From: a virus
Direction: 5' to 3' (one strand)
DNA length: 64,000 nucleotides
IMG/VR virus record: IMGVR_UViG_3300010399_000001
Span: 32,001-96,000 of that record
The notes under the pieces were generated by a model. The model saw nothing but the letters and a program-made list of their open reading frames with translations. It did not search any database and was not told the origin of the DNA. The position numbers and the translations under genes were made by a program. Of this stretch, positions 7,091 through 23,864 are shown piece after piece; the stretch's first letter is position 1; each line of letters starts with the position of its first letter.

Positions 7091-7172
7091 TGGTGCCGGG
7101 GACGGGGTTCGAACCCGCACTGGGGCTGTGGCTTTTGAGACCCGCCGCCTCTGTTAGTTGGGCCACCCCGGC
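7091..7172 (-). tRNA. tRNA-Leu(CAA)-like gene with mispaired anticodon stem
   Basis: Acceptor GCCGGGG/CCCCGGC + ACCA; T arm GCGGG-TTCGAAC-CCCGT; loop CTCAAAA flanked by only about 3 pairs. Confidence 0.65.
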
Positions 7173-14972: not shown

Positions 14973-15000
14973 ATCAGTCCTCACTCTGGGAGATGTTGCG

Positions 15001-15132
15001 CGGGCTGGGCAGGACTCGAACCTGCCTAGGCGGGCCGTCGCCCTATTTGGCCACCCTGGTAGTGGGGAATCGAACCCCTCCTGCTCGCCGAGAGCACGCC
15101 GGAATCGAACCGGCTACCTTTCCATTCAGCCC
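15001..15132 (-). ncRNA. tRNA-like structured RNA with three T-loop hairpins
   Basis: Ends GGGCTG/CAGCCC; hairpins CCGG-TTCGATT-CCGG, GGGG-TTCGATT-CCCC, GCAGG-TTCGAGT-CCTGC. Confidence 0.7.
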
Positions 15133-15135
15133 TAG

Positions 15136-15227
15136 AGCCCATGGCAGGATTCGAACCTGCGATGAGGGGTCATGACTTCCCTCTCGGCACCGGGGACCCG
15201 ATGCCCGACCGCCTGCGGTCCATGGGC
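15136..15227 (-). ncRNA. aberrant tRNA-like RNA (no canonical anticodon loop)
   Basis: Acceptor GCCCATG/CATGGGC, T arm GCAGG-TTCGAAT-CCTGC, three non-canonical internal hairpins. Confidence 0.7.
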
Positions 15228-15254
15228 GTGAATGCGCGCTGTTTCTGCACACCG

Positions 15255-15327
15255 CGCTCCTGGCGGGATTTGAACCCGCGGCCACCGCCGTGACAGGGCG
15301 GCGCTCTGACCTCTGAGCTACAGGAGC
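15255..15327 (-). tRNA. tRNA-Asp(GTC), CCA not encoded
   Basis: GCTCCTG acceptor, D arm, CCGCC-CTGTCAC-GGCGG, GCGGG-TTCAAAT-CCCGC, G73. Confidence 0.92.
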
Positions 15328-19538: not shown

Positions 19539-20075
19539 TCACTGCCTGCTCCCCTCCGCCCATCGGCGGACGTTGCCGAGGTGCTTATCGGTGATACCGG
19601 TGCGAGGACTGACCGGCTCGTAGAGGGTCGGCGCGATCATACGGTCCCGCATTCCGGCCTCGGTCAGATCCATCGGGGTGAACTCGTCATCCAGCCATGC
19701 GTACGGGCGATGGCGGACATACTCCTCCACGCTCGGCCGCTTCCAGATCCGCAGGGGATCGCCCCGCTGCCACACGCACTCGATGGTCGGTAACTGCGGC
19801 AGACCCAGGATGGGGGCGATCAGCTTGTTTGCCAGATCGTTCCACGCGGTAGCCCAGACTAGATCCACAACGTCGGTCAGCTCAAGAAGCTGCCTGCCGT
19901 GATCGGGATTGAGCCACACCCGGATGCCACCCTTGACCCACGGGCGGCCGAGTGGATCGGTGAATGCCCCGCTGAGCAGGCGGTGCGTCTGGAATCCCGG
20001 CGGCCTGCGGGTCGGCTTGGCCGCGTAGGGGTTGAGCGGACCGTCCACATCGATCAGCAATAGCGGCTTGTTCAT
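19539..20075 (-). CDS. HAD phosphatase, Swiss-Army-Knife RNA-repair-like
   Basis: PLLLIDVDGPLNP, LVWATAW, WK, YAWLDDE motifs. Confidence 0.8.
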   Translation of the reverse strand: MNKPLLLIDVDGPLNPYAAKPTRRPPGFQTHRLLSGAFTDPLGRPWVKGGIRVWLNPDHGRQLLELTDVVDLVWATAWNDLANKLIAPILGLPQLPTIECVWQRGDPLRIWKRPSVEEYVRHRPYAWLDDEFTPMDLTEAGMRDRMIAPTLYEPVSPRTGITDKHLGNVRRWAEGSRQ

Positions 20076-20076
20076 C

Positions 20077-21039
20077 TCAGAAGTCTCCGTACTCGACCTG
20101 GTGGCAGGGCAGCTTGTAGACCAGCCGCCACAGATCGACCACCTGGTTGCGGTCGTCATAGACGGCCTCGACGTTGTAGCGGCCTCGGATGTTCTGCTCG
20201 AACAGCTGCGACTTGACCACGAAGTCCGGCCGCCTGTCCCCAGTGGGGCGCATGTGCAGGTCGCTGTACTTGATGTTGTGGGCTCGCAGCCACGCCTCGG
20301 TCTGCCTGCGGTACTCCTCCTGGCGGCCGGACAGAAGGATGATCTTGATCTCGCCGTCGACGTACGGGTAGATGTCGATCAGATTGGCAACTGCCTCGTT
20401 CAGGCTGTCGGTCTCCAGCTCCTCCAGGTCGTAGGGACCCCTATCCGCATGCTTCGCCAGGGTGCCGTCGATATCGAACAGCACGCACCAGGGCAGATCA
20501 TCGTCGATAACGCAGGGCTGAACTGGGCGGATCAGGTCACGCCACTCGTTCATCCACTCATCGGTCAGCTTCCAGCCGTCCTTGCGGGTGGACTGATGGC
20601 GCTCCCACATACCCCGGATGACCGACTCGCCCACTCGCTCCCCATCGCGCCGCCCGGCGTCCACGGCGATGCACTCCTCGACCGTCATATCAGTCAGGTC
20701 GTGAACCCGGAAGATCACATTGCGGGTGGAGAGGGTCGTGCGGTACCGATTGGGCAGCTTGTAGCCCATGTGGGTGTTGTCGATCACCACGTCGTATCCG
20801 GCGTCCACCGCGCTCATGACGCCGCGCAGCATGGCCTTCTGAACCACCTTCTCGATGGCGTCATCCCATCTGGGGATGCTCATCATCCGGCGGTAGTCGT
20901 CCAGATTGAAGCGCATGGCCGAGATGCTGCGAGCGTACGTGCTCTTGCCAGAGCCGGGCAGGCCGTGCATCACATGGATCACCACCTCCTTACTGGATGG
21001 ATCGTGACGCGGATCAGCCGCGAGATCGTAGACGCGCAT
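20077..21039 (-). CDS. polynucleotide 5'-kinase/3'-phosphatase (T4 PNKP-like)
   Basis: P-loop GLPGSGKST, DDYRRM, VVIDNT; HAD FDIDGTLA, LSGR, MRPTGDRRPD..VK, YDDRNQVV. Confidence 0.92.
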   Translation of the reverse strand: MRVYDLAADPRHDPSSKEVVIHVMHGLPGSGKSTYARSISAMRFNLDDYRRMMSIPRWDDAIEKVVQKAMLRGVMSAVDAGYDVVIDNTHMGYKLPNRYRTTLSTRNVIFRVHDLTDMTVEECIAVDAGRRDGERVGESVIRGMWERHQSTRKDGWKLTDEWMNEWRDLIRPVQPCVIDDDLPWCVLFDIDGTLAKHADRGPYDLEELETDSLNEAVANLIDIYPYVDGEIKIILLSGRQEEYRRQTEAWLRAHNIKYSDLHMRPTGDRRPDFVVKSQLFEQNIRGRYNVEAVYDDRNQVVDLWRLVYKLPCHQVEYGDF

Positions 21040-21178: not shown

Positions 21179-22843
21179 TTAGAAAGGCCAGCTACCATCA
21201 CCGGCAGACAGCGAGGCCAGCATCGTGAACACCTTGTCGGAGAACCCGCCGATCTCGTACCGGTTCGGCTTGCTCGTGTCGATGCTGGATGCACCGTAAC
21301 CCGAGGTGTTGATGCCGAACATCGGCACGCGGTCCGGAATGGCCTCCGACACGCTCATACCGCGCACCTTGCCGATCGCATCGTAGTAGCCGACCGAACC
21401 ACCACCGGGGTAGTGGAACGCCTGCATGTCCGAGACGATGACCACCCGATCATGACCGGAGTAGCTGGCCTTGAGGGCGGCGACCGTCTCGGTACCGTGA
21501 CCGACCGAGCCGACGCGCTTGCTGAATCCCTCGATGTCGCGCAGCAGGCTGCCGCCGTTCTTGAGCGGGTACTGGAAGACTCCGTTGGCGAAGCCGACCA
21601 GGTCCACATTCTTCGGACCGCACTTACGCGCGATCGCCACGCCGATCAGAGCGCCGATATCGACATGACGGATGCTCGACTTGGCCGAGACGTTGCTGTG
21701 CATCGATCCGGAGGTGTCTACCAGGACCAGGGTGCGGCCCGGCAGGTTGGGGATGTTGGCGCATGCGTGACCCAGCGCCTCCTCCAGCGGCTGACCCCAG
21801 CGCAGCGAGTTGAGCGAGCGGTAAGCCGACAGGAACCGGTACGGGAACTGGCGGGACTTGGCCACCTGAGCCGGGTCGCTGATGCGCGAGGCGACCTTCT
21901 CGTAGACCTCCTTGCCAAGCTTGGCCTCATCGAAGTTGCGCAGGTTGCGCAGCAGCGCCATGTAACCCATCGACGGGATGATCGCCTCCCAGGCGATGCG
22001 ATCCATCGGGCCCTGGAGCCAGCCGGACAGCGCCTCCCAGGTGATGCCAGCCTCACGCAGCCGCTCCGCTGCACCGGAAGCCTTGACAAAGCTCCGGCGC
22101 TCAGCGAGGGGGAGGGACAGCAGCTCCTTGCGCTTGCGCAGCATCGTCAGCGACTCGGGGATCTCCTTGCCGCGCCCGTGCCTCTCGTCGATGATGTGCT
22201 CGAACAGGTCCCCCTGCTCGGGCGTGACGAATGCGGCGTTGAACCGGTCGACAGGGTGCACCATCTCGATCACGTCGGCGAAGCGCACACTCTTGTCCGG
22301 CGAGTCGTACTTGGAGTACGAGTACTCGCTGTAGAGGCGGCGCACCGCATCACCGGTACCGCGCTTGATCGAGATCGGGATGCGGTTGCGGCCATAGTTG
22401 GCGATCCAGTAGGCCAGCAGCTCCCCCGGCTCGTCGGCGCGAGAGCACGCCAGGGAGATCAGGCGGCGGTTGATGCCGACCGGCACATCGTTGCGGATAT
22501 CGGTCGGAGCCATGAGCGTGCGGGTACGCACCGCCTCGGCGGCGATGACGATAGACGCGGTGCGCATGTTGGCCTCGTTGCGCAGCCACGGGATGAAGCC
22601 CAGCAGCCACTGCGGGTCCTCGCGCGCAACGGCGGCGGCCAGCTCCTTCAGGCGCTTGGCCTGGTCGCTCTTGGACTCGTAGAACTTGTCCTCGCCCATG
22701 TAGGTGACGGCCAGGATGAACAGGTCGCTCTTGGCGTCACGCTTGAACGCCGCCCCACTCTCGAAGGTGGTGGTCTTCTCCCCCGTGGTGCGCACCGGCC
22801 CGAGGGTCGCAGTGCCACCCGAACGCTTGTTGAATCCAGACAT
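21179..22843 (-). CDS. rsr: Ro60 / Rsr TROVE + vWA RNA-binding protein
   Basis: TROVE motifs (WLRNEANMRT, SRADEP, YSKYD, ITWE, MGYMALLRNLRNF, SRQFPYRFLSAY) and MIDAS LVDTSGSM; VIVSDMQ; GGFSD. Confidence 0.95.
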   Translation of the reverse strand: MSGFNKRSGGTATLGPVRTTGEKTTTFESGAAFKRDAKSDLFILAVTYMGEDKFYESKSDQAKRLKELAAAVAREDPQWLLGFIPWLRNEANMRTASIVIAAEAVRTRTLMAPTDIRNDVPVGINRRLISLACSRADEPGELLAYWIANYGRNRIPISIKRGTGDAVRRLYSEYSYSKYDSPDKSVRFADVIEMVHPVDRFNAAFVTPEQGDLFEHIIDERHGRGKEIPESLTMLRKRKELLSLPLAERRSFVKASGAAERLREAGITWEALSGWLQGPMDRIAWEAIIPSMGYMALLRNLRNFDEAKLGKEVYEKVASRISDPAQVAKSRQFPYRFLSAYRSLNSLRWGQPLEEALGHACANIPNLPGRTLVLVDTSGSMHSNVSAKSSIRHVDIGALIGVAIARKCGPKNVDLVGFANGVFQYPLKNGGSLLRDIEGFSKRVGSVGHGTETVAALKASYSGHDRVVIVSDMQAFHYPGGGSVGYYDAIGKVRGMSVSEAIPDRVPMFGINTSGYGASSIDTSKPNRYEIGGFSDKVFTMLASLSAGDGSWPF

Positions 22844-22844
22844 G

Positions 22845-22873
22845 AAAAAACCCCTCTCGTCTTGACGGAGGGG
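22845..22873 (-). terminator. intrinsic terminator overlapping the rsr ribosome-binding site
   Basis: Minus strand CCCCTC-CGTCAAGACGA-GAGGGG-TTTTTT-C-ATG. Confidence 0.75.
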
Positions 22874-22880
22874 AAAGGCA

Positions 22881-23033
22881 TGGTAGCGCCCGAGATCAGA
22901 AGTCGGTGGCGGTGTTTTCAGTCTTATGCTCTACCTGACTGAGCTACCCCACCCGAAGGCGGGGGCAGGATTCGAACCTGCGACCGTAAGATTAGCAATG
23001 AAGTATCCGTCACCTGCGCTTCGGGCGCTGCCA
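22881..23033 (-). ncRNA. Y RNA-like (YrlA-type) with permuted tRNA domain
   Basis: CCCGAAGCGCAG...GATACTTC, T arm, acceptor-like stem closed by TTCG, D arm TAGCTCAGTCAGGTAGAGC, ...TGATCTCGGG. Confidence 0.85.
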
Positions 23034-23040
23034 AAACCTT

Positions 23041-23127
23041 TCCCGAGATCAGTGTGAATGGCGGTATTATGCCTCGAACTACCATGTGAAGGTTATTGAG
23101 AAGTAACCGTCATTCTGCGCTTCGGGA
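23041..23127 (-). ncRNA. Y RNA-like, short, with Val(CAC)-like anticodon hairpin
   Basis: Same scaffold; insert AATAACC-TTCACAT-GGTAGTT. Confidence 0.8.
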
Positions 23128-23140
23128 TGAAGCCTTTGGT

Positions 23141-23250
23141 CCCTCCGAGATCAAGATGGCGATGGAGAGCGGGACTTGAACCCGCAGAATTCCGTTGCTT
23201 AGACAGAATCATTCAACCAATGAAGTAACCATCACCTGCGCTTCGGAGGG
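23141..23250 (-). ncRNA. Y RNA-like with anticodon-like hairpin and T arm
   Basis: Same scaffold; ATTCTGT-CTAAGCA-ACGGAAT then GCGGG-TTCAAGT-CCCGC. Confidence 0.8.
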
Positions 23251-23262
23251 TGAAGCAGTAGA

Positions 23263-23417
23263 TATGGACATCCCCGAGATCGAGTCGACCAAGGTAACGT
23301 TAGGCGCTTTAGGCCACTAAGCTACCCCCGGATGAGCCCAGGGGGCAGGATTCGAACCTGCGATCTCCCGCTCCCAATGCGAAGTAACCCTATGTCTGCG
23401 CTTCGGGAATGTCCATA
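23263..23417 (-). ncRNA. Y RNA-like (YrlA-type) with permuted tRNA-Pro-like domain
   Basis: TGG-GA-GCGGG-AGATC-T arm; D arm TAGCTTAGTGGCCTAAAGCG. Confidence 0.85.
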
Positions 23418-23428
23418 ACAAAGCAGGG

Positions 23429-23576
23429 GATGCGGTCCCGAGATCAATTCGGCTGGGAGGTGTTTAACGTGCTGCCATTGCACCACCGGCCCAGGAGTGG
23501 ACCGGACAGGATTCGAACCTGCATCTCTCCATTAGAAGTGAAGTAACCCCTTATGCCTGCGCTTCGGGGCCGCATC
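23429..23576 (-). ncRNA. Y RNA-like (YrlA-type) with permuted tRNA domain
   Basis: CT-TCT-AA segment, T arm, closed acceptor, D arm TGGTGCAATGGCAGCAC. Confidence 0.85.
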
Positions 23577-23605
23577 TTCTCATTCTCTATTCAGTTGTGA
23601 AAAGC

Positions 23606-23738
23606 ATCCCGAGATCAAGCCGGTGAACGAAAGCGCATTGGACCACTCTGCCACGACCTGCCTGCACTAGTCAGACAGGCGCTGGGATTCGAACCCAGGT
23701 TCTCTGTGAGAAGTAACGCTCAACCTTCGCTTCGGGAT
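23606..23738 (-). ncRNA. Y RNA-like (YrlA-type) with permuted tRNA domain
   Basis: T arm CTGGG-TTCGAAT-CCCAG, closed acceptor, D arm TGGCAGAGTGGTCCAATGC. Confidence 0.85.
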
Positions 23739-23749
23739 ATGAAGTTTGA

Positions 23750-23830
23750 CAGCTCCGAGATCAAGTCGATGCCAGGCGTTGGTGTCTAATTTACAGTTAG
23801 AAGTAACCCGGCTTCTTCGCTTCGGAACTG
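23750..23830 (-). ncRNA. Y RNA-like, short, with Tyr(GTA) anticodon stem-loop
   Basis: Same scaffold; TCTAA-CTGTAAA-TTAGA. Confidence 0.8.
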
Positions 23831-23835
23831 AGACT

Positions 23836-23864
23836 AAGCTACCGTGCTCATCGGCTAAGTGCAA
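23836..23864 (-). promoter_or_regulatory. sigma70/HrdB-type promoter for the Y RNA array
   Basis: TTGCAC-17 nt-TAGCTT ending 5 nt before the first Y RNA stem. Confidence 0.7.

What the first reader, a model, noticed from the sequence alone, without database searches (positions are those of the whole stretch)
22881..23864. Tandem array of seven diversified Y RNA-like genes directly upstream of a phage Ro60 (Rsr)
Seen: the 1-kb gap upstream of the TROVE gene consists of seven units (22881-23033, 23041-23127, 23141-23250, 23263-23417, 23429-23576, 23606-23738, 23750-23830). On the minus strand each reads [stem]-CCGAAGCG(C/A)AG-[stem]-G(T/A)TACTTC-[variable insert]-[stem]-GATCTCGG-[stem]. The outer and inner stems differ in sequence between units but stay complementary, which indicates selection on structure. 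One TTGCAC-17-TAGCTT promoter precedes the array. Established: bacterial and some phage Ro60 orthologs are flanked by Y RNAs (YrlA/YrlB) with a CGAA-containing Ro-binding helix and, in YrlA, a permuted tRNA-like domain. Inference: a constant protein-binding scaffold with interchangeable inserts, repeated seven times, is a modular RNP library rather than the one or few Y RNAs usually described.
Basis: partly seen in the sequence, partly recalled or inferred. Interest (0 to 1): 0.95.

Follow-up and report, generated by a model that had tools for sequence, protein, structure and literature searches.

The report
Seven Y RNA genes before phage Ro60
An uncultured 115-kb phage of actinobacteria carries seven back-to-back small RNA genes that share one docking stem for the phage's ring-shaped Ro60 protein but have different tRNA-like heads. 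It is a large example of an arrangement that is common in related phages and soil bacteria and has barely been described.

Summary
A covariance model built here finds exactly seven adjoining units on the minus strand (22880-23834, 30.7-125.5 bits). Nothing else in the region exceeds 8 bits, and the phage genome has no further match.

All seven share CCGAAGCG(C/A)AG, G(T/A)TACTTC and GATCTCGG. Their outer and inner stems differ in sequence but pair best with their own partner. Four units are YrlA-type, with a permuted T arm, closed 7-8 bp acceptor-like stem and D arm. One carries a differently arranged tRNA-like body, and two are short hairpins.

Across 53 homologous units, 29 of 32 pairs show compensatory changes (91.7% paired against 40-47% when slid).

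Such arrays are not rare. Counts are 1-8 per locus in 74 viral Rsr loci (8 in L044) and 1-4 in 79 cellular actinobacterial loci. Earlier reports of this scan note the same arrangement on other DNA, with up to ten units.

The docking scaffold is alike within a genome, whereas the heads match counterparts in other phages. This supports the "constant scaffold, different payload" reading.

Expression, Rsr binding and the purpose of seven RNAs are untested. I rate it an expanded member of the known Rsr/Y RNA kind, of moderate interest.

The parts
23836..23864 (-). Promoter-like site: TTGCAC (23864-23859), 17-nt spacer, TAGCTT (23841-23836), ending 5 nt before the first paired base of unit 1
   Evidence: Sequence read. 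Not called by the E. coli-type scan. A TANNNT hexamer at this distance precedes 33 of 64 first units but only 12 of 96 later units in related arrays, and in the window precedes unit 1 only.
23745..23834 (-). Unit 1: short Y RNA-like unit (YrlB-like). It has the scaffold plus a 5-bp hairpin with 7-nt loop CUGUAAA and no T arm.
   Evidence: R1 44.7 bits, E 1.3e-11. Fold -27.2 kcal/mol, z -2.2. Motifs.
23599..23744 (-). Unit 2: YrlA-type unit with a T arm (CTGGG TTCGAAT CCCAG), an 8-bp closed acceptor-like stem and an atypical D arm
   Evidence: R1 83.6 bits. Aligned in A2.
23428..23576 (-). Unit 3: YrlA-type unit with a variable-loop hairpin (loop CUUCUAA), T arm, 7-bp acceptor-like stem and D arm
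   Evidence: R1 111.1 bits. Rfam YrlA 25.4 bits. The Rfam tRNA model scores 30.6, above its cut-off of 29, on the 5' part. The payload is 0.73 identical to L019:2013-2159.
23264..23415 (-). Unit 4: YrlA-type unit with a T arm, 7-bp acceptor-like stem (loop GCTCAT) and D arm
   Evidence: R1 125.5 bits. Rfam YrlA 27.9 bits. The payload is 0.88 identical to L040:3632-3782, although that genome uses another scaffold variant.
23135..23255 (-). Unit 5: scaffold enclosing a differently ordered tRNA-like body. It has a small D-like hairpin, a 7-bp stem with loop CUAAGCA, then a canonical T arm (GCGGG TTCAAGT CCCGC).
   Evidence: R1 49.5 bits, matching the scaffold only. Rfam tRNA 19.4 bits, below its cut-off. 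Fold -43.2 kcal/mol, z -3.3. No second example of this order among 176 modules.
23034..23134 (-). Unit 6: short Y RNA-like unit with the scaffold plus an interrupted hairpin (loop UUCACAU) and no T arm
   Evidence: R1 30.7 bits, E 4.9e-8; 33.4 bits in the whole-genome search. Fold -27.0 kcal/mol, z -2.3.
22880..23033 (-). Unit 7: YrlA-type unit with a T arm, 7-bp acceptor-like stem closed by UUCG, UA linker and D arm GCTC AGTCAGGTA GAGC
   Evidence: R1 117.6 bits. Best Rfam YrlA match in the window, 50.2 bits, E 5.7e-10, full length, below the cut-off of 69.
22844..22873 (-). Hairpin (CCCCTCCGT ... ACGAGAGGGG) followed by U6, ending 1 nt before the rsr start codon. Its 3' arm holds the only Shine-Dalgarno-like sequence.
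   Evidence: Fold -16.8 kcal/mol, z -3.06. Not called by the simple terminator scan, which allows no bulge. A Shine-Dalgarno-pairing hairpin is found before rsr in 38 of 51 viral and 53 of 60 cellular loci.
21179..22843 (-). rsr: Ro60 ortholog, 554 aa
   Evidence: Pfam TROVE 1.8e-14. PDB 9KOP/9L5Y phage phiLo Ro60 3.5e-23. 55-59% identical to Streptomyces and Catenulispora TROVE proteins.
20077..21039 (-). Polynucleotide kinase-phosphatase (T4 Pnkp type)
   Evidence: Pfam HAD_PNKP 1.8e-46 and AAA_33 4.6e-12. phrog_505 polynucleotide kinase 5.3e-76.
19539..20159 (-). Possible second HAD-type phosphatase (weak)
   Evidence: Pfam HAD_SAK_2 1.1e-5, 26.3 bits, just under the cut-off of 27.5. No PHROG match.

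Best explanation
The 1-kb gap is one small transcription unit encoding seven Y RNAs for the phage's own Ro60 (Rsr) protein.

Shown from sequence and comparison:
- There are seven units with one shared scaffold. An outer stem is formed by the two ends. A conserved 5x5 internal loop (5' AGCG(C/A) against 3' strand UGAUC) sits next to CCCGA/UCGGG and carries the CGAA motif. An inner stem follows, then (G/A)UACUUC.
- The heads differ: four are permuted tRNA-like domains, one is another tRNA-like body and two are hairpins.
- The family is conserved, with compensatory changes, directly upstream of rsr on the same strand in about 150 viral and cellular actinobacterial loci.

Inferred:
- Transcription starts at the promoter-like site just before unit 1.
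- Most transcripts end at the hairpin-U6 that also covers the rsr ribosome-binding site. Read-through yields rsr-pnkp mRNA.
- The precursor is cut in the short spacers, several of which carry an ACAACUUCA-like motif, into RNAs of 90-155 nt.
- Each RNA docks on the outer face of the Rsr ring through the shared scaffold.
- Each head tethers or gates the ring towards a different partner. By analogy with known Y RNAs, this could be PNPase or a tRNA-recognising enzyme.
- Units with 7-bp acceptor-like stems (3, 4, 7) may also be nicked by RNase P and given CCA, as M. smegmatis YrlA is.
For: - Exactly seven adjoining matches to R1, all on the rsr strand, and none elsewhere in the 115-kb genome.
- Cognate stem pairing beats non-cognate pairing: 19 of 5040 and 1 of 5040 permutations.
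- Family covariation: 29 of 32 pairs carry double changes, 91.7% of cells are paired against 40-47% when slid, and the covariation score is 0.663 against about 0.13, with 0 of 500 shuffles reaching it.
- All 229 (viral set) and 166 (cellular set) R1 matches lie on the rsr strand, almost all within 1-2 kb upstream.
- Unit 7 matches Rfam YrlA end to end at E 5.7e-10.
- Unit 3 shares CACUUCUAAUGGA with the sense of the published M. smegmatis YrlA 5' probe (PMC4201824).
- Published work: Rsr-bound YrlA/YrlB in M. smegmatis and RNase P cleavage of a 7-bp acceptor stem (PMC4201824). Phage phiLo Ro60 binds two phage-encoded Y-like RNAs, and each CGAA base contributes 3-4 fold to affinity (PMC12135203).
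- The scaffold is genome-specific while payloads are shared across genomes.
- A TANNNT hexamer is enriched before first units only: 33 of 64 against 12 of 96, p about 1e-7.
- The spacer motif ACAACTTCA occurs before about 50 of 130 units.
Against: - There are no expression, end-mapping or binding data for this uncultured phage.
- No unit reaches Rfam's YrlA gathering score.
- The published GNCGAAN0-1G motif is only partly met: CGAA-G is present, but the position two bases upstream is C or T, not G.
- The promoter hexamers match the E. coli consensus at only 3 of 6 each.
- The hairpin-U6 was not found by the simple terminator scan.
- The spacer motif is missing before units 4 and 7.
- What the heads bind is unknown even for the studied YrlA RNAs.
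Confidence: 0.82

Rival explanations
1. The array is chiefly a cis-acting leader of the rsr-pnkp operon. In this reading the structured repeats, together with the terminator that covers the ribosome-binding site, sense something (for example free Rsr or tRNA-related enzymes). They set how much rsr mRNA is made or translated, rather than yielding stable trans-acting RNAs.
For: - Same strand, directly abutting rsr.
- The hairpin-U6 ends 1 nt before the ATG and pairs the only Shine-Dalgarno-like sequence.
- A Shine-Dalgarno-pairing hairpin before rsr is widespread.
- Only one promoter-like site serves the whole block.
Against: - Homologous RNAs in M. smegmatis and Salmonella are stable, Rsr-bound small RNAs (PMC4201824).
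- Each unit closes on itself with its own end-to-end stem, which is the form of a released RNA.
- A leader role does not explain seven different tRNA-like heads that are conserved type by type in other phages.
- The two roles are not mutually exclusive.
Confidence: 0.08
2. The units are decayed or rearranged tRNA genes, remnants of a phage tRNA cluster such as the one around rsr in Streptomyces phages BRock and GiJojo, with no tie to Ro60.
For: - T arms, D arms and acceptor-like stems are present.
- The Rfam tRNA model scores unit 3 at 30.6, above its cut-off of 29.
- Unit 7 matches a tRNA-Ile/tRNA-Tyr junction in Bacillus phages at 84.5% over 55 nt.
- In BRock and GiJojo, rsr sits inside the tRNA cluster.
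Against: - ARAGORN finds no tRNA here.
- The conserved, covarying outer and inner stems and the CGAA loop have no counterpart in tRNA.
- Two units have no tRNA part at all.
- The family follows rsr, not tRNA clusters, in 79 cellular loci.
- Descent from dimeric tRNA transcripts is the published model for the origin of YrlA (bioRxiv 10.1101/312249). It explains the likeness without making these tRNA genes.
Confidence: 0.03
3. The array is a set of decoys or spare parts against host tRNA-cutting defences. Each head would present a different tRNA-like surface or anticodon-like loop to soak up, or be repaired after, anticodon nucleases, with Rsr and Pnkp acting in the same pathway.
For: - Pnkp lies next to rsr.
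- Phage arrays are larger than cellular ones: mean 2.68 against 2.10, maximum 8 against 4, p 0.0026.
- 96 of 114 YrlA-type units have a hairpin with a 7-nt loop in the variable-loop position, and 56 of these fit YU-NNN-R-N against 7% in shuffles.
Against: - The loops are dominated by one conserved word, CUNNUAA, which contains the UA that is conserved in YrlA. They are not a spread of anticodons.
- No RNA ligase (RtcB or Rnl2 type) is found in the genome to complete a repair path.
- Pnkp is not regularly linked to large arrays: it is present in only 2 of 5 checked.
- No defence or nuclease data exist.
Confidence: 0.07

Closest known systems
YrlA and YrlB of Mycobacterium smegmatis and Salmonella Typhimurium, with putative YrlAs in 254 bacteria and 22 phages (Chen et al. 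2014, PMC4201824; Rfam RF02553; structure in bioRxiv 10.1101/312249)
   Same: - Encoded next to rsr on the same strand.
- The ends pair into a stem with a CGAA-containing loop.
- Permuted T arm, closed acceptor-like stem and D arm.
- 7-bp acceptor-like stems as in M. smegmatis.
- Short partner RNAs without the full domain, like YrlB.
- Unit 7 aligns to RF02553 end to end.
   Different: - Seven genes in one block, against the one or two studied per species.
- All units score below Rfam's cut-off.
- Both strands of the docking helix are recognisable (CCGAAG with UUGAUCUCGG), whereas Chen et al. say only the 5' strand is recognisable in Salmonella and M. smegmatis.
- There is a hairpin in the variable-loop position.
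- One unit has a non-permuted order of tRNA-like hairpins.
Yrl1 and Yrl2 of Thermus phage phiLo with its Ro60 (NAR 2025, PMC12135203; PDB 9KOP, 9L5Y)
   Same: - A phage Ro60 with phage-encoded Y-like RNAs beside the gene.
- A CGAA motif in a stem-bulge-stem, shown there to matter for binding.
- The protein is a detectable homologue (3.5e-23).
   Different: - Two RNAs there, seven here.
- The phiLo RNAs were picked by CGAA motifs upstream of the gene and have no described tRNA-like domain.
- My model instead finds two weak scaffold-like matches downstream of the phiLo gene.
Deinococcus radiodurans Yrn1 and the other small RNAs upstream of rsr; the Rsr-Y RNA-PNPase complex (RYPER)
   Same: - Several small RNAs are encoded in a row upstream of rsr.
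- The Y RNA docks on Rsr and tethers an effector.
- It is the model for how the heads here may work.
   Different: - It is a separate lineage with another order of tRNA-like arms (PMC4201824).
- No link to PNPase is shown for this phage.
Metazoan Y RNAs (hY1, hY3, hY4, hY5)
   Same: - Two to four paralogous RNAs share one Ro60-binding stem and differ in the loop.
- The docking helix reads alike: CCGAAG on the 5' strand and UUGA(U)CU on the 3' strand. The hY1 sequence is from my memory.
   Different: - Separate genes and promoters, with no tRNA-like domain.
- The Rfam Y_RNA model gives no match here at E up to 10.
Larger phage arrays of the same family (L044 with 8 units, L007 with 6, L019 with 6)
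   Same: - Same scaffold plan, the same mix of long tRNA-like and short units, and the same place before rsr.
   Different: - Each genome has its own scaffold variant. Examples are CGAAGTG...GTTCTCG in L044 and CGGTGCC...CAAYCTCGG in L007.
- None is a close relative of this phage; Rsr identity is at most 56%.

Membership tests
Y RNA (Ro60-associated small RNA) | Encoded beside a Ro60/Rsr ortholog, on the same strand in bacteria and phages | tested here: met
   The array ends 36 nt before the rsr start codon, on the same strand. The same holds for the R1 matches in the viral and cellular sets.
Y RNA (Ro60-associated small RNA) | The 5' and 3' ends pair into a long stem that holds the Ro60 site with a CGAA motif (GNCGAAN0-1G in Chen et al. 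2014) | tested here: inconclusive
   End-to-end stems and CGAA-G are present in all seven units. The G two bases before CGAA is C or T here. In the wider family CGAA itself varies (CGGTG, CGATG, CGTTG).
Y RNA (Ro60-associated small RNA) | Stable RNA of about 80-150 nt physically bound by Ro60 | not testable with these tools
   Predicted unit sizes are 90-154 nt. No RNA or binding data exist for this uncultured phage.
YrlA (Rfam RF02553) | Score at or above the family's gathering threshold (69 bits) | tested here: not met
   The best is unit 7 at 50.2 bits, E 5.7e-10, full length. Units 4 and 3 score 27.9 and 25.4 as partial matches. The gathering-mode search returns no YrlA.
YrlA (Rfam RF02553) | Permuted tRNA-like domain: T arm, then acceptor-like stem closed by a loop, then D arm, joined to the Ro60 stem through the anticodon-stem position | tested here: met
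   Units 2, 3, 4 and 7 meet this. The helices covary across 53 homologues: T arm 100% paired, acceptor-like 90.6%, D arm 95.7%. Units 1, 5 and 6 do not have this domain.
YrlA (Rfam RF02553) | Conserved elbow nucleotides (T loop GGTTCGAATCC, D loop GG, UA linker between acceptor-like stem and D arm) | tested here: met
   GGTTCGAATCC is found in units 2, 3, 4 and 7. GTAGCT...GG...AG is found in units 4 and 7. Units 3 and 2 deviate, with a TG linker and an atypical D arm respectively.
YrlA (Rfam RF02553) | [quoted passage not shown] | not testable with these tools
   Units 3, 4 and 7 have 7-bp acceptor-like stems, the feature linked to RNase P cleavage in M. smegmatis (PMC4201824). That is a prediction only.
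tRNA gene | Complete cloverleaf with anticodon arm and free acceptor end, detected by a tRNA finder | tested here: not met
   ARAGORN finds none in the array. The Rfam tRNA model passes its cut-off only on part of unit 3 (30.6 against 29), with two mismatched acceptor pairs and a 16-nt insertion in place of the D arm.

The most novel reading that the evidence does not exclude
Phages of actinobacteria have expanded the Rsr/Y RNA pair into a multiplexed adaptor set. One ring protein would be paired with up to seven or more RNAs whose docking scaffold co-evolves with that genome's Rsr. Their heads would be distinct, anciently conserved tRNA mimics, each directing the ring (with host PNPase, RNase P, the CCA enzyme or other tRNA-binding proteins) to a different task during infection, possibly including defence against host tRNA-targeting nucleases. 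If so, the array would offer a natural panel for finding the long-sought partners of the YrlA tRNA-like domain.
Probability: 0.18. Interest if true: 0.8.

Novelty: new member of a known kind. Interest (0 to 1): 0.48.

Why it matters
Y RNAs and Ro60 have been known for forty years. What the tRNA-like head of bacterial YrlA binds is still unknown.

A phage that packs seven such RNAs on one scaffold is a compact natural panel. Four of the heads are different conserved tRNA mimics. A pull-down with each head could identify partners.

The genome-specific scaffold variants give a ready test of RNA-protein co-evolution at the Ro60 surface.

It also matters for annotation. These arrays are missed by Rfam's threshold. 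In deposited phage genomes they are sometimes called tRNA (GiJojo 'tRNA-Arg(cct)') or strings of tiny ORFs (Gordonia phage Neville gp86-90).

As a single instance it adds little beyond size. The arrangement is common, and this scan has met it many times.

Tried and rejected
The closest Rsr relatives (P0002 at 77% and P0003 at 75%, both on ~100-kb contigs) could not be fetched, so insert turnover among near relatives could not be examined.
- Single-protein locus searches found nothing in viral contigs and one distant locus (43%) in metagenome contigs.
- A DNA pattern scan for this phage's exact scaffold found only scattered single or double matches.
- Iterated nhmmer on the 5' half drifted and lost true units. 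I replaced it with a regex and then the covariance model R1.
- R1 with default filters misses the two short units in the window-wide search. Array sizes are therefore lower bounds, tallied by hand.
- The Rfam gathering search gives no YrlA.
- The sigma-70 scan gives no promoter and the simple scan gives no minus-strand terminator.
- I considered the 'library of anticodon loops' idea and largely set it aside, because the loops share one conserved word, CUNNUAA.
- I looked for a second example of unit 5's hairpin order and found none.
- No RtcB or Rnl2-type ligase is present in the genome.
- The reviews by Sim & Wolin (2018), Boccitto & Wolin (2019) and Sim et al. (2020) are not held. I therefore cannot rule out that they mention multi-copy phage arrays.
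- No Mycobacterium phage appeared among the organisms named in either tblastn search with phage Ro60 queries. R1 was therefore not tested on the phages in Chen et al.'s set.
Full report
**Where the window lies.** The window is bases 32001-96000 of a 115,046-bp IMG/VR virus record. The record has direct terminal repeats, is rated 100% complete, and has about 62% G+C.

**The protein genes (minus strand).**
- The ORF at 21179-22843 (554 aa) is a Ro60/Rsr ortholog. It matches Pfam TROVE at 1.8e-14 and PDB 9KOP/9L5Y, the Ro60 of Thermus phage phiLo, at 3.5e-23.
- It is 55-59% identical to TROVE proteins of Streptomyces and Catenulispora. It is about 40% identical to the Ro-like proteins of Streptomyces phages BRock, GiJojo and LuckySocke.
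- Downstream lies a T4-type polynucleotide kinase-phosphatase at 20077-21039 (HAD_PNKP 1.8e-46; phrog_505 5.3e-76).
- A weak HAD match follows at 19539-20159.
- No RtcB or Rnl2-type RNA ligase is found anywhere in the genome.

- On the minus strand the words CCGAAGCG, G[TA]TACTTC and GATCTCGG each occur seven times in the gap, in register. Elsewhere in 64 kb they occur 1-8 times each on both strands together.
- The pieces between these words differ. The outer 5' arms are 27% identical on average. Even so, each arm pairs best with its own partner.
- Only 19 of 5040 partner permutations reach the cognate mean duplex energy for the outer stem, and 1 of 5040 for the inner stem.
- Single units fold better than shuffles, with z from -2.2 to -3.3.

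**Family context and the model.**
- I collected Rsr loci from annotated phages, from IMG/VR (80 loci) and from one genome per species of bacteria (80 loci).
- BRock, read by eye, has four units of the same plan in the unannotated gap before its Ro gene, with its own scaffold words GATGCGNAG ... NTACTTC ... TTTTTCTAG.
- An alignment of 53 long units from the window and 33 other loci (A2) gives a consensus fold with seven helices. These are the outer stem, two segments of the inner stem, the T arm, the acceptor-like stem in two segments, and the D arm.
- 29 of 32 pairs show changes on both sides. 91.7% of cells are paired, against 40-47% when partners are slid by 1-3 columns. The covariation score is 0.663 against about 0.13, and 0 of 500 shuffles reach it.
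- The covariance model R1 built from this alignment was run on the gap with filters off. It finds exactly seven adjoining units: 23745-23834, 23599-23744, 23428-23576, 23264-23415, 23135-23255, 23034-23134 and 22880-23033.
- These score 30.7 to 125.5 bits, and nothing else exceeds 8 bits. The rest of the phage genome has no further match.

**What the units are.**
- Units 2, 3, 4 and 7 have the YrlA order: variable-loop region, T arm (GGTTCGAATCC), an acceptor-like stem of 7-8 bp closed by a 4-7 nt loop, a two-base linker, then the D arm.
- Unit 7 aligns to Rfam YrlA over its whole length at 50.2 bits (E 5.7e-10). Units 4 and 3 align in part. None reaches the family's cut-off of 69 bits.
- Unit 3 shares CACUUCUAAUGGA with the sense strand of the published M. 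smegmatis YrlA 5' probe.
- Units 1 and 6 have the scaffold and a simple hairpin, like YrlB.
- Unit 5 has a small hairpin, then a 7-bp stem with a 7-nt loop, then a canonical T arm. This is the unpermuted tRNA order. I found no second case among 176 modules, so I treat it as a one-off.
- ARAGORN finds no tRNA in the array.

**How unusual seven is.**
- All 229 R1 matches in the viral set and all 166 in the cellular set lie on the rsr strand. Almost all are in the 1-2 kb upstream.
- Counts were tallied by hand from those two calls. They used default filters, so they are lower bounds.
- 74 viral loci: mean 2.68, median 3, maximum 8, with six loci at five or more.
- 79 cellular loci: mean 2.10, median 2, maximum 4.
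- The one-sided Mann-Whitney p is 0.0026.
- With filters off, L044 has 8 units, L019 has 6, and L010, L028, L040, L055 and L061 have 5 each. L007, a complete 111-kb phage, has 6 by default filters.
- The window's seven is therefore near the top of a continuum, not a thing apart.
- Earlier reports of this scan describe the same arrangement on other DNA, with nine and ten units in actinophages. I did not check those.

**What the literature says.**
- Chen et al. 2014 list 355 putative YrlAs in 254 bacteria and 22 phages, and studied one or two per species.
- The phiLo paper describes two.
- I found no paper that describes arrays of this size. Three relevant reviews are not held.

**Scaffold against payload.**
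- On the model-fitted alignment of the 150 best matches (138 distinct rows), the docking scaffold is 0.78 identical within a locus and 0.66 between loci. No permutation of locus labels out of 500 reaches that difference.
- The tRNA-like payload is 0.43 identical within a locus and 0.47 between loci.
- Each genome has its own scaffold word. The window has CGAAGCG...GATCTCGG, BRock has CGATGCG...TTTTTCTAG, L044 has CGAAGTG...GTTNTCG, and L007 has CGGTGCC...CAAYCTCGG.
- The window's heads have closer counterparts in other phages than in their own array. Unit 4 is 0.88 identical to L040:3632. Unit 7 is 0.76 identical to L006:3514. Unit 3 is 0.73 identical to L019:2013. They are at most 0.58 identical to one another.
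- So the units are old, distinct types, not recent duplicates. The scaffold tracks the genome, as expected if all units of an array dock on that genome's Rsr.

**Transcription and processing (inferred).**
- TTGCAC-17-TAGCTT ends 5 nt before the first paired base of unit 1. It fits the E. coli consensus poorly.
- However, a TANNNT hexamer at this distance precedes 33 of 64 first units against 12 of 96 later units (p about 1e-7). In the window it precedes unit 1 only.
- Units abut or are separated by 8-22 nt.
- About 50 of 130 units are preceded by an ACAACTTCA-like word. In the window such a word stands before units 2, 3 (as ACAACTGAA), 5 and 6.
- From memory, this word fits the RN|CNU preference reported for mycobacterial RNase E. 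That is a lead only.
- After unit 7 comes a hairpin of -16.8 kcal/mol (z -3.06) and U6, ending one base before the rsr ATG. Its 3' arm is the only Shine-Dalgarno-like sequence.
- A Shine-Dalgarno-pairing hairpin before rsr is general: 38 of 51 viral and 53 of 60 cellular loci. The U tract is not general. That count has no control from unrelated genes.

**The anticodon-decoy idea.**
- In YrlA-type units the variable-loop position usually forms a hairpin with a 7-nt loop (96 of 114). 56 of these fit YU-NNN-R-N, against 7% in shuffles.
- The loops are dominated by CUNNUAA. This word contains the UA that the YrlA structure paper notes as conserved.
- This looks like one conserved motif rather than a spread of anticodons, so I give the decoy reading low weight.

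**Verdict.**
- The finding is real and correctly named.
- It is an expanded member of the Rsr/Y RNA kind, in a family that Rfam's threshold misses and that genome annotators mislabel.
- Its function beyond docking on Rsr is not known.

Noticed in passing
window 14995-15230 (minus strand), downstream of tRNA-Asp 15254-15327: A roughly 250-nt non-coding stretch holds four T-arm-like hairpins (GCAGGTTCGAATCCTGC, GCCGGTTCGATTCCGGC, GGGGTTCGATTCCCC, GCAGGTTCGAGTCCTGC) but no tRNA by ARAGORN. Rfam tRNA scores 27.2 (cut-off 29) at 15136-15227, and R1 scores 19.4 at 15078-15202. It could be a decayed tRNA cluster or another tRNA-like RNA.
   Followed up: partly
window 7094-7172 (minus strand): A borderline Rfam tRNA match (31.6 bits against a cut-off of 29) that ARAGORN does not call.
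   Followed up: no
L003 2769-2843 (Streptomyces phage GiJojo, PP725410.1 9796-9870): The feature annotated 'tRNA-Arg(cct)' lies inside an R1 match (2759-2916, 83.3 bits) directly before the Ro gene. It is probably the 5' part of a YrlA-type Y RNA, not a tRNA. The Rfam tRNA model makes the same call on unit 3 of the window.
   Followed up: partly
L005 1982-2795 (Gordonia phage Neville, NC_060131.1 gp86-gp90): Five tiny annotated CDSs (105-201 nt) overlie the phage's Y RNA-like array before its Ro gene (regex matches at 2437, 2575, 2660, 2819; R1 matches at 2424-2563 and 2646-2804). They are probably not genes.
   Followed up: partly
L175 3469-3545 and 3659-3751 (Thermus phage phiLo, MH673673.1, just downstream of the Ro60 gene): R1 finds two weak scaffold-like units (19.8 and 10.6 bits) with GGGUACUUC and matching inner stems. 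They are on the Ro60 strand but downstream of the gene, overlapping hypothetical CDS phiLo_25. The published Yrl1 and Yrl2 were chosen upstream by CGAA motifs.
   Followed up: partly
Spacers before units, for example window 23735-23745 and 23585-23595; L006, L012, L033, L081 and others: A conserved word, ACAACTTCA(G/T)A, stands a few bases before about 50 of 130 units in viral loci. It is a candidate processing site between units.
   Followed up: partly
45 nt before the rsr start in L006-L165: A hairpin that pairs the Shine-Dalgarno-like sequence of rsr is found in most viral (38 of 51) and cellular (53 of 60) loci, mostly without a U tract. This suggests translational control of rsr as a general feature.
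   Followed up: partly
MT310898.1 (Streptomyces phage Kela) 84658-86379: In this 185-kb phage the Ro-like gene is annotated next to an RNA ligase. No such gene is found in the window's phage.
   Followed up: no
window 22927-22981 (unit 7: T arm, acceptor-like stem, D arm): This stretch matches the junction of adjacent tRNA-Ile and tRNA-Tyr genes in Bacillus phages BCU4 and TsarBomba at 84.5% over 55 nt. That fits the published idea that YrlA arose from a dimeric tRNA transcript.
   Followed up: no
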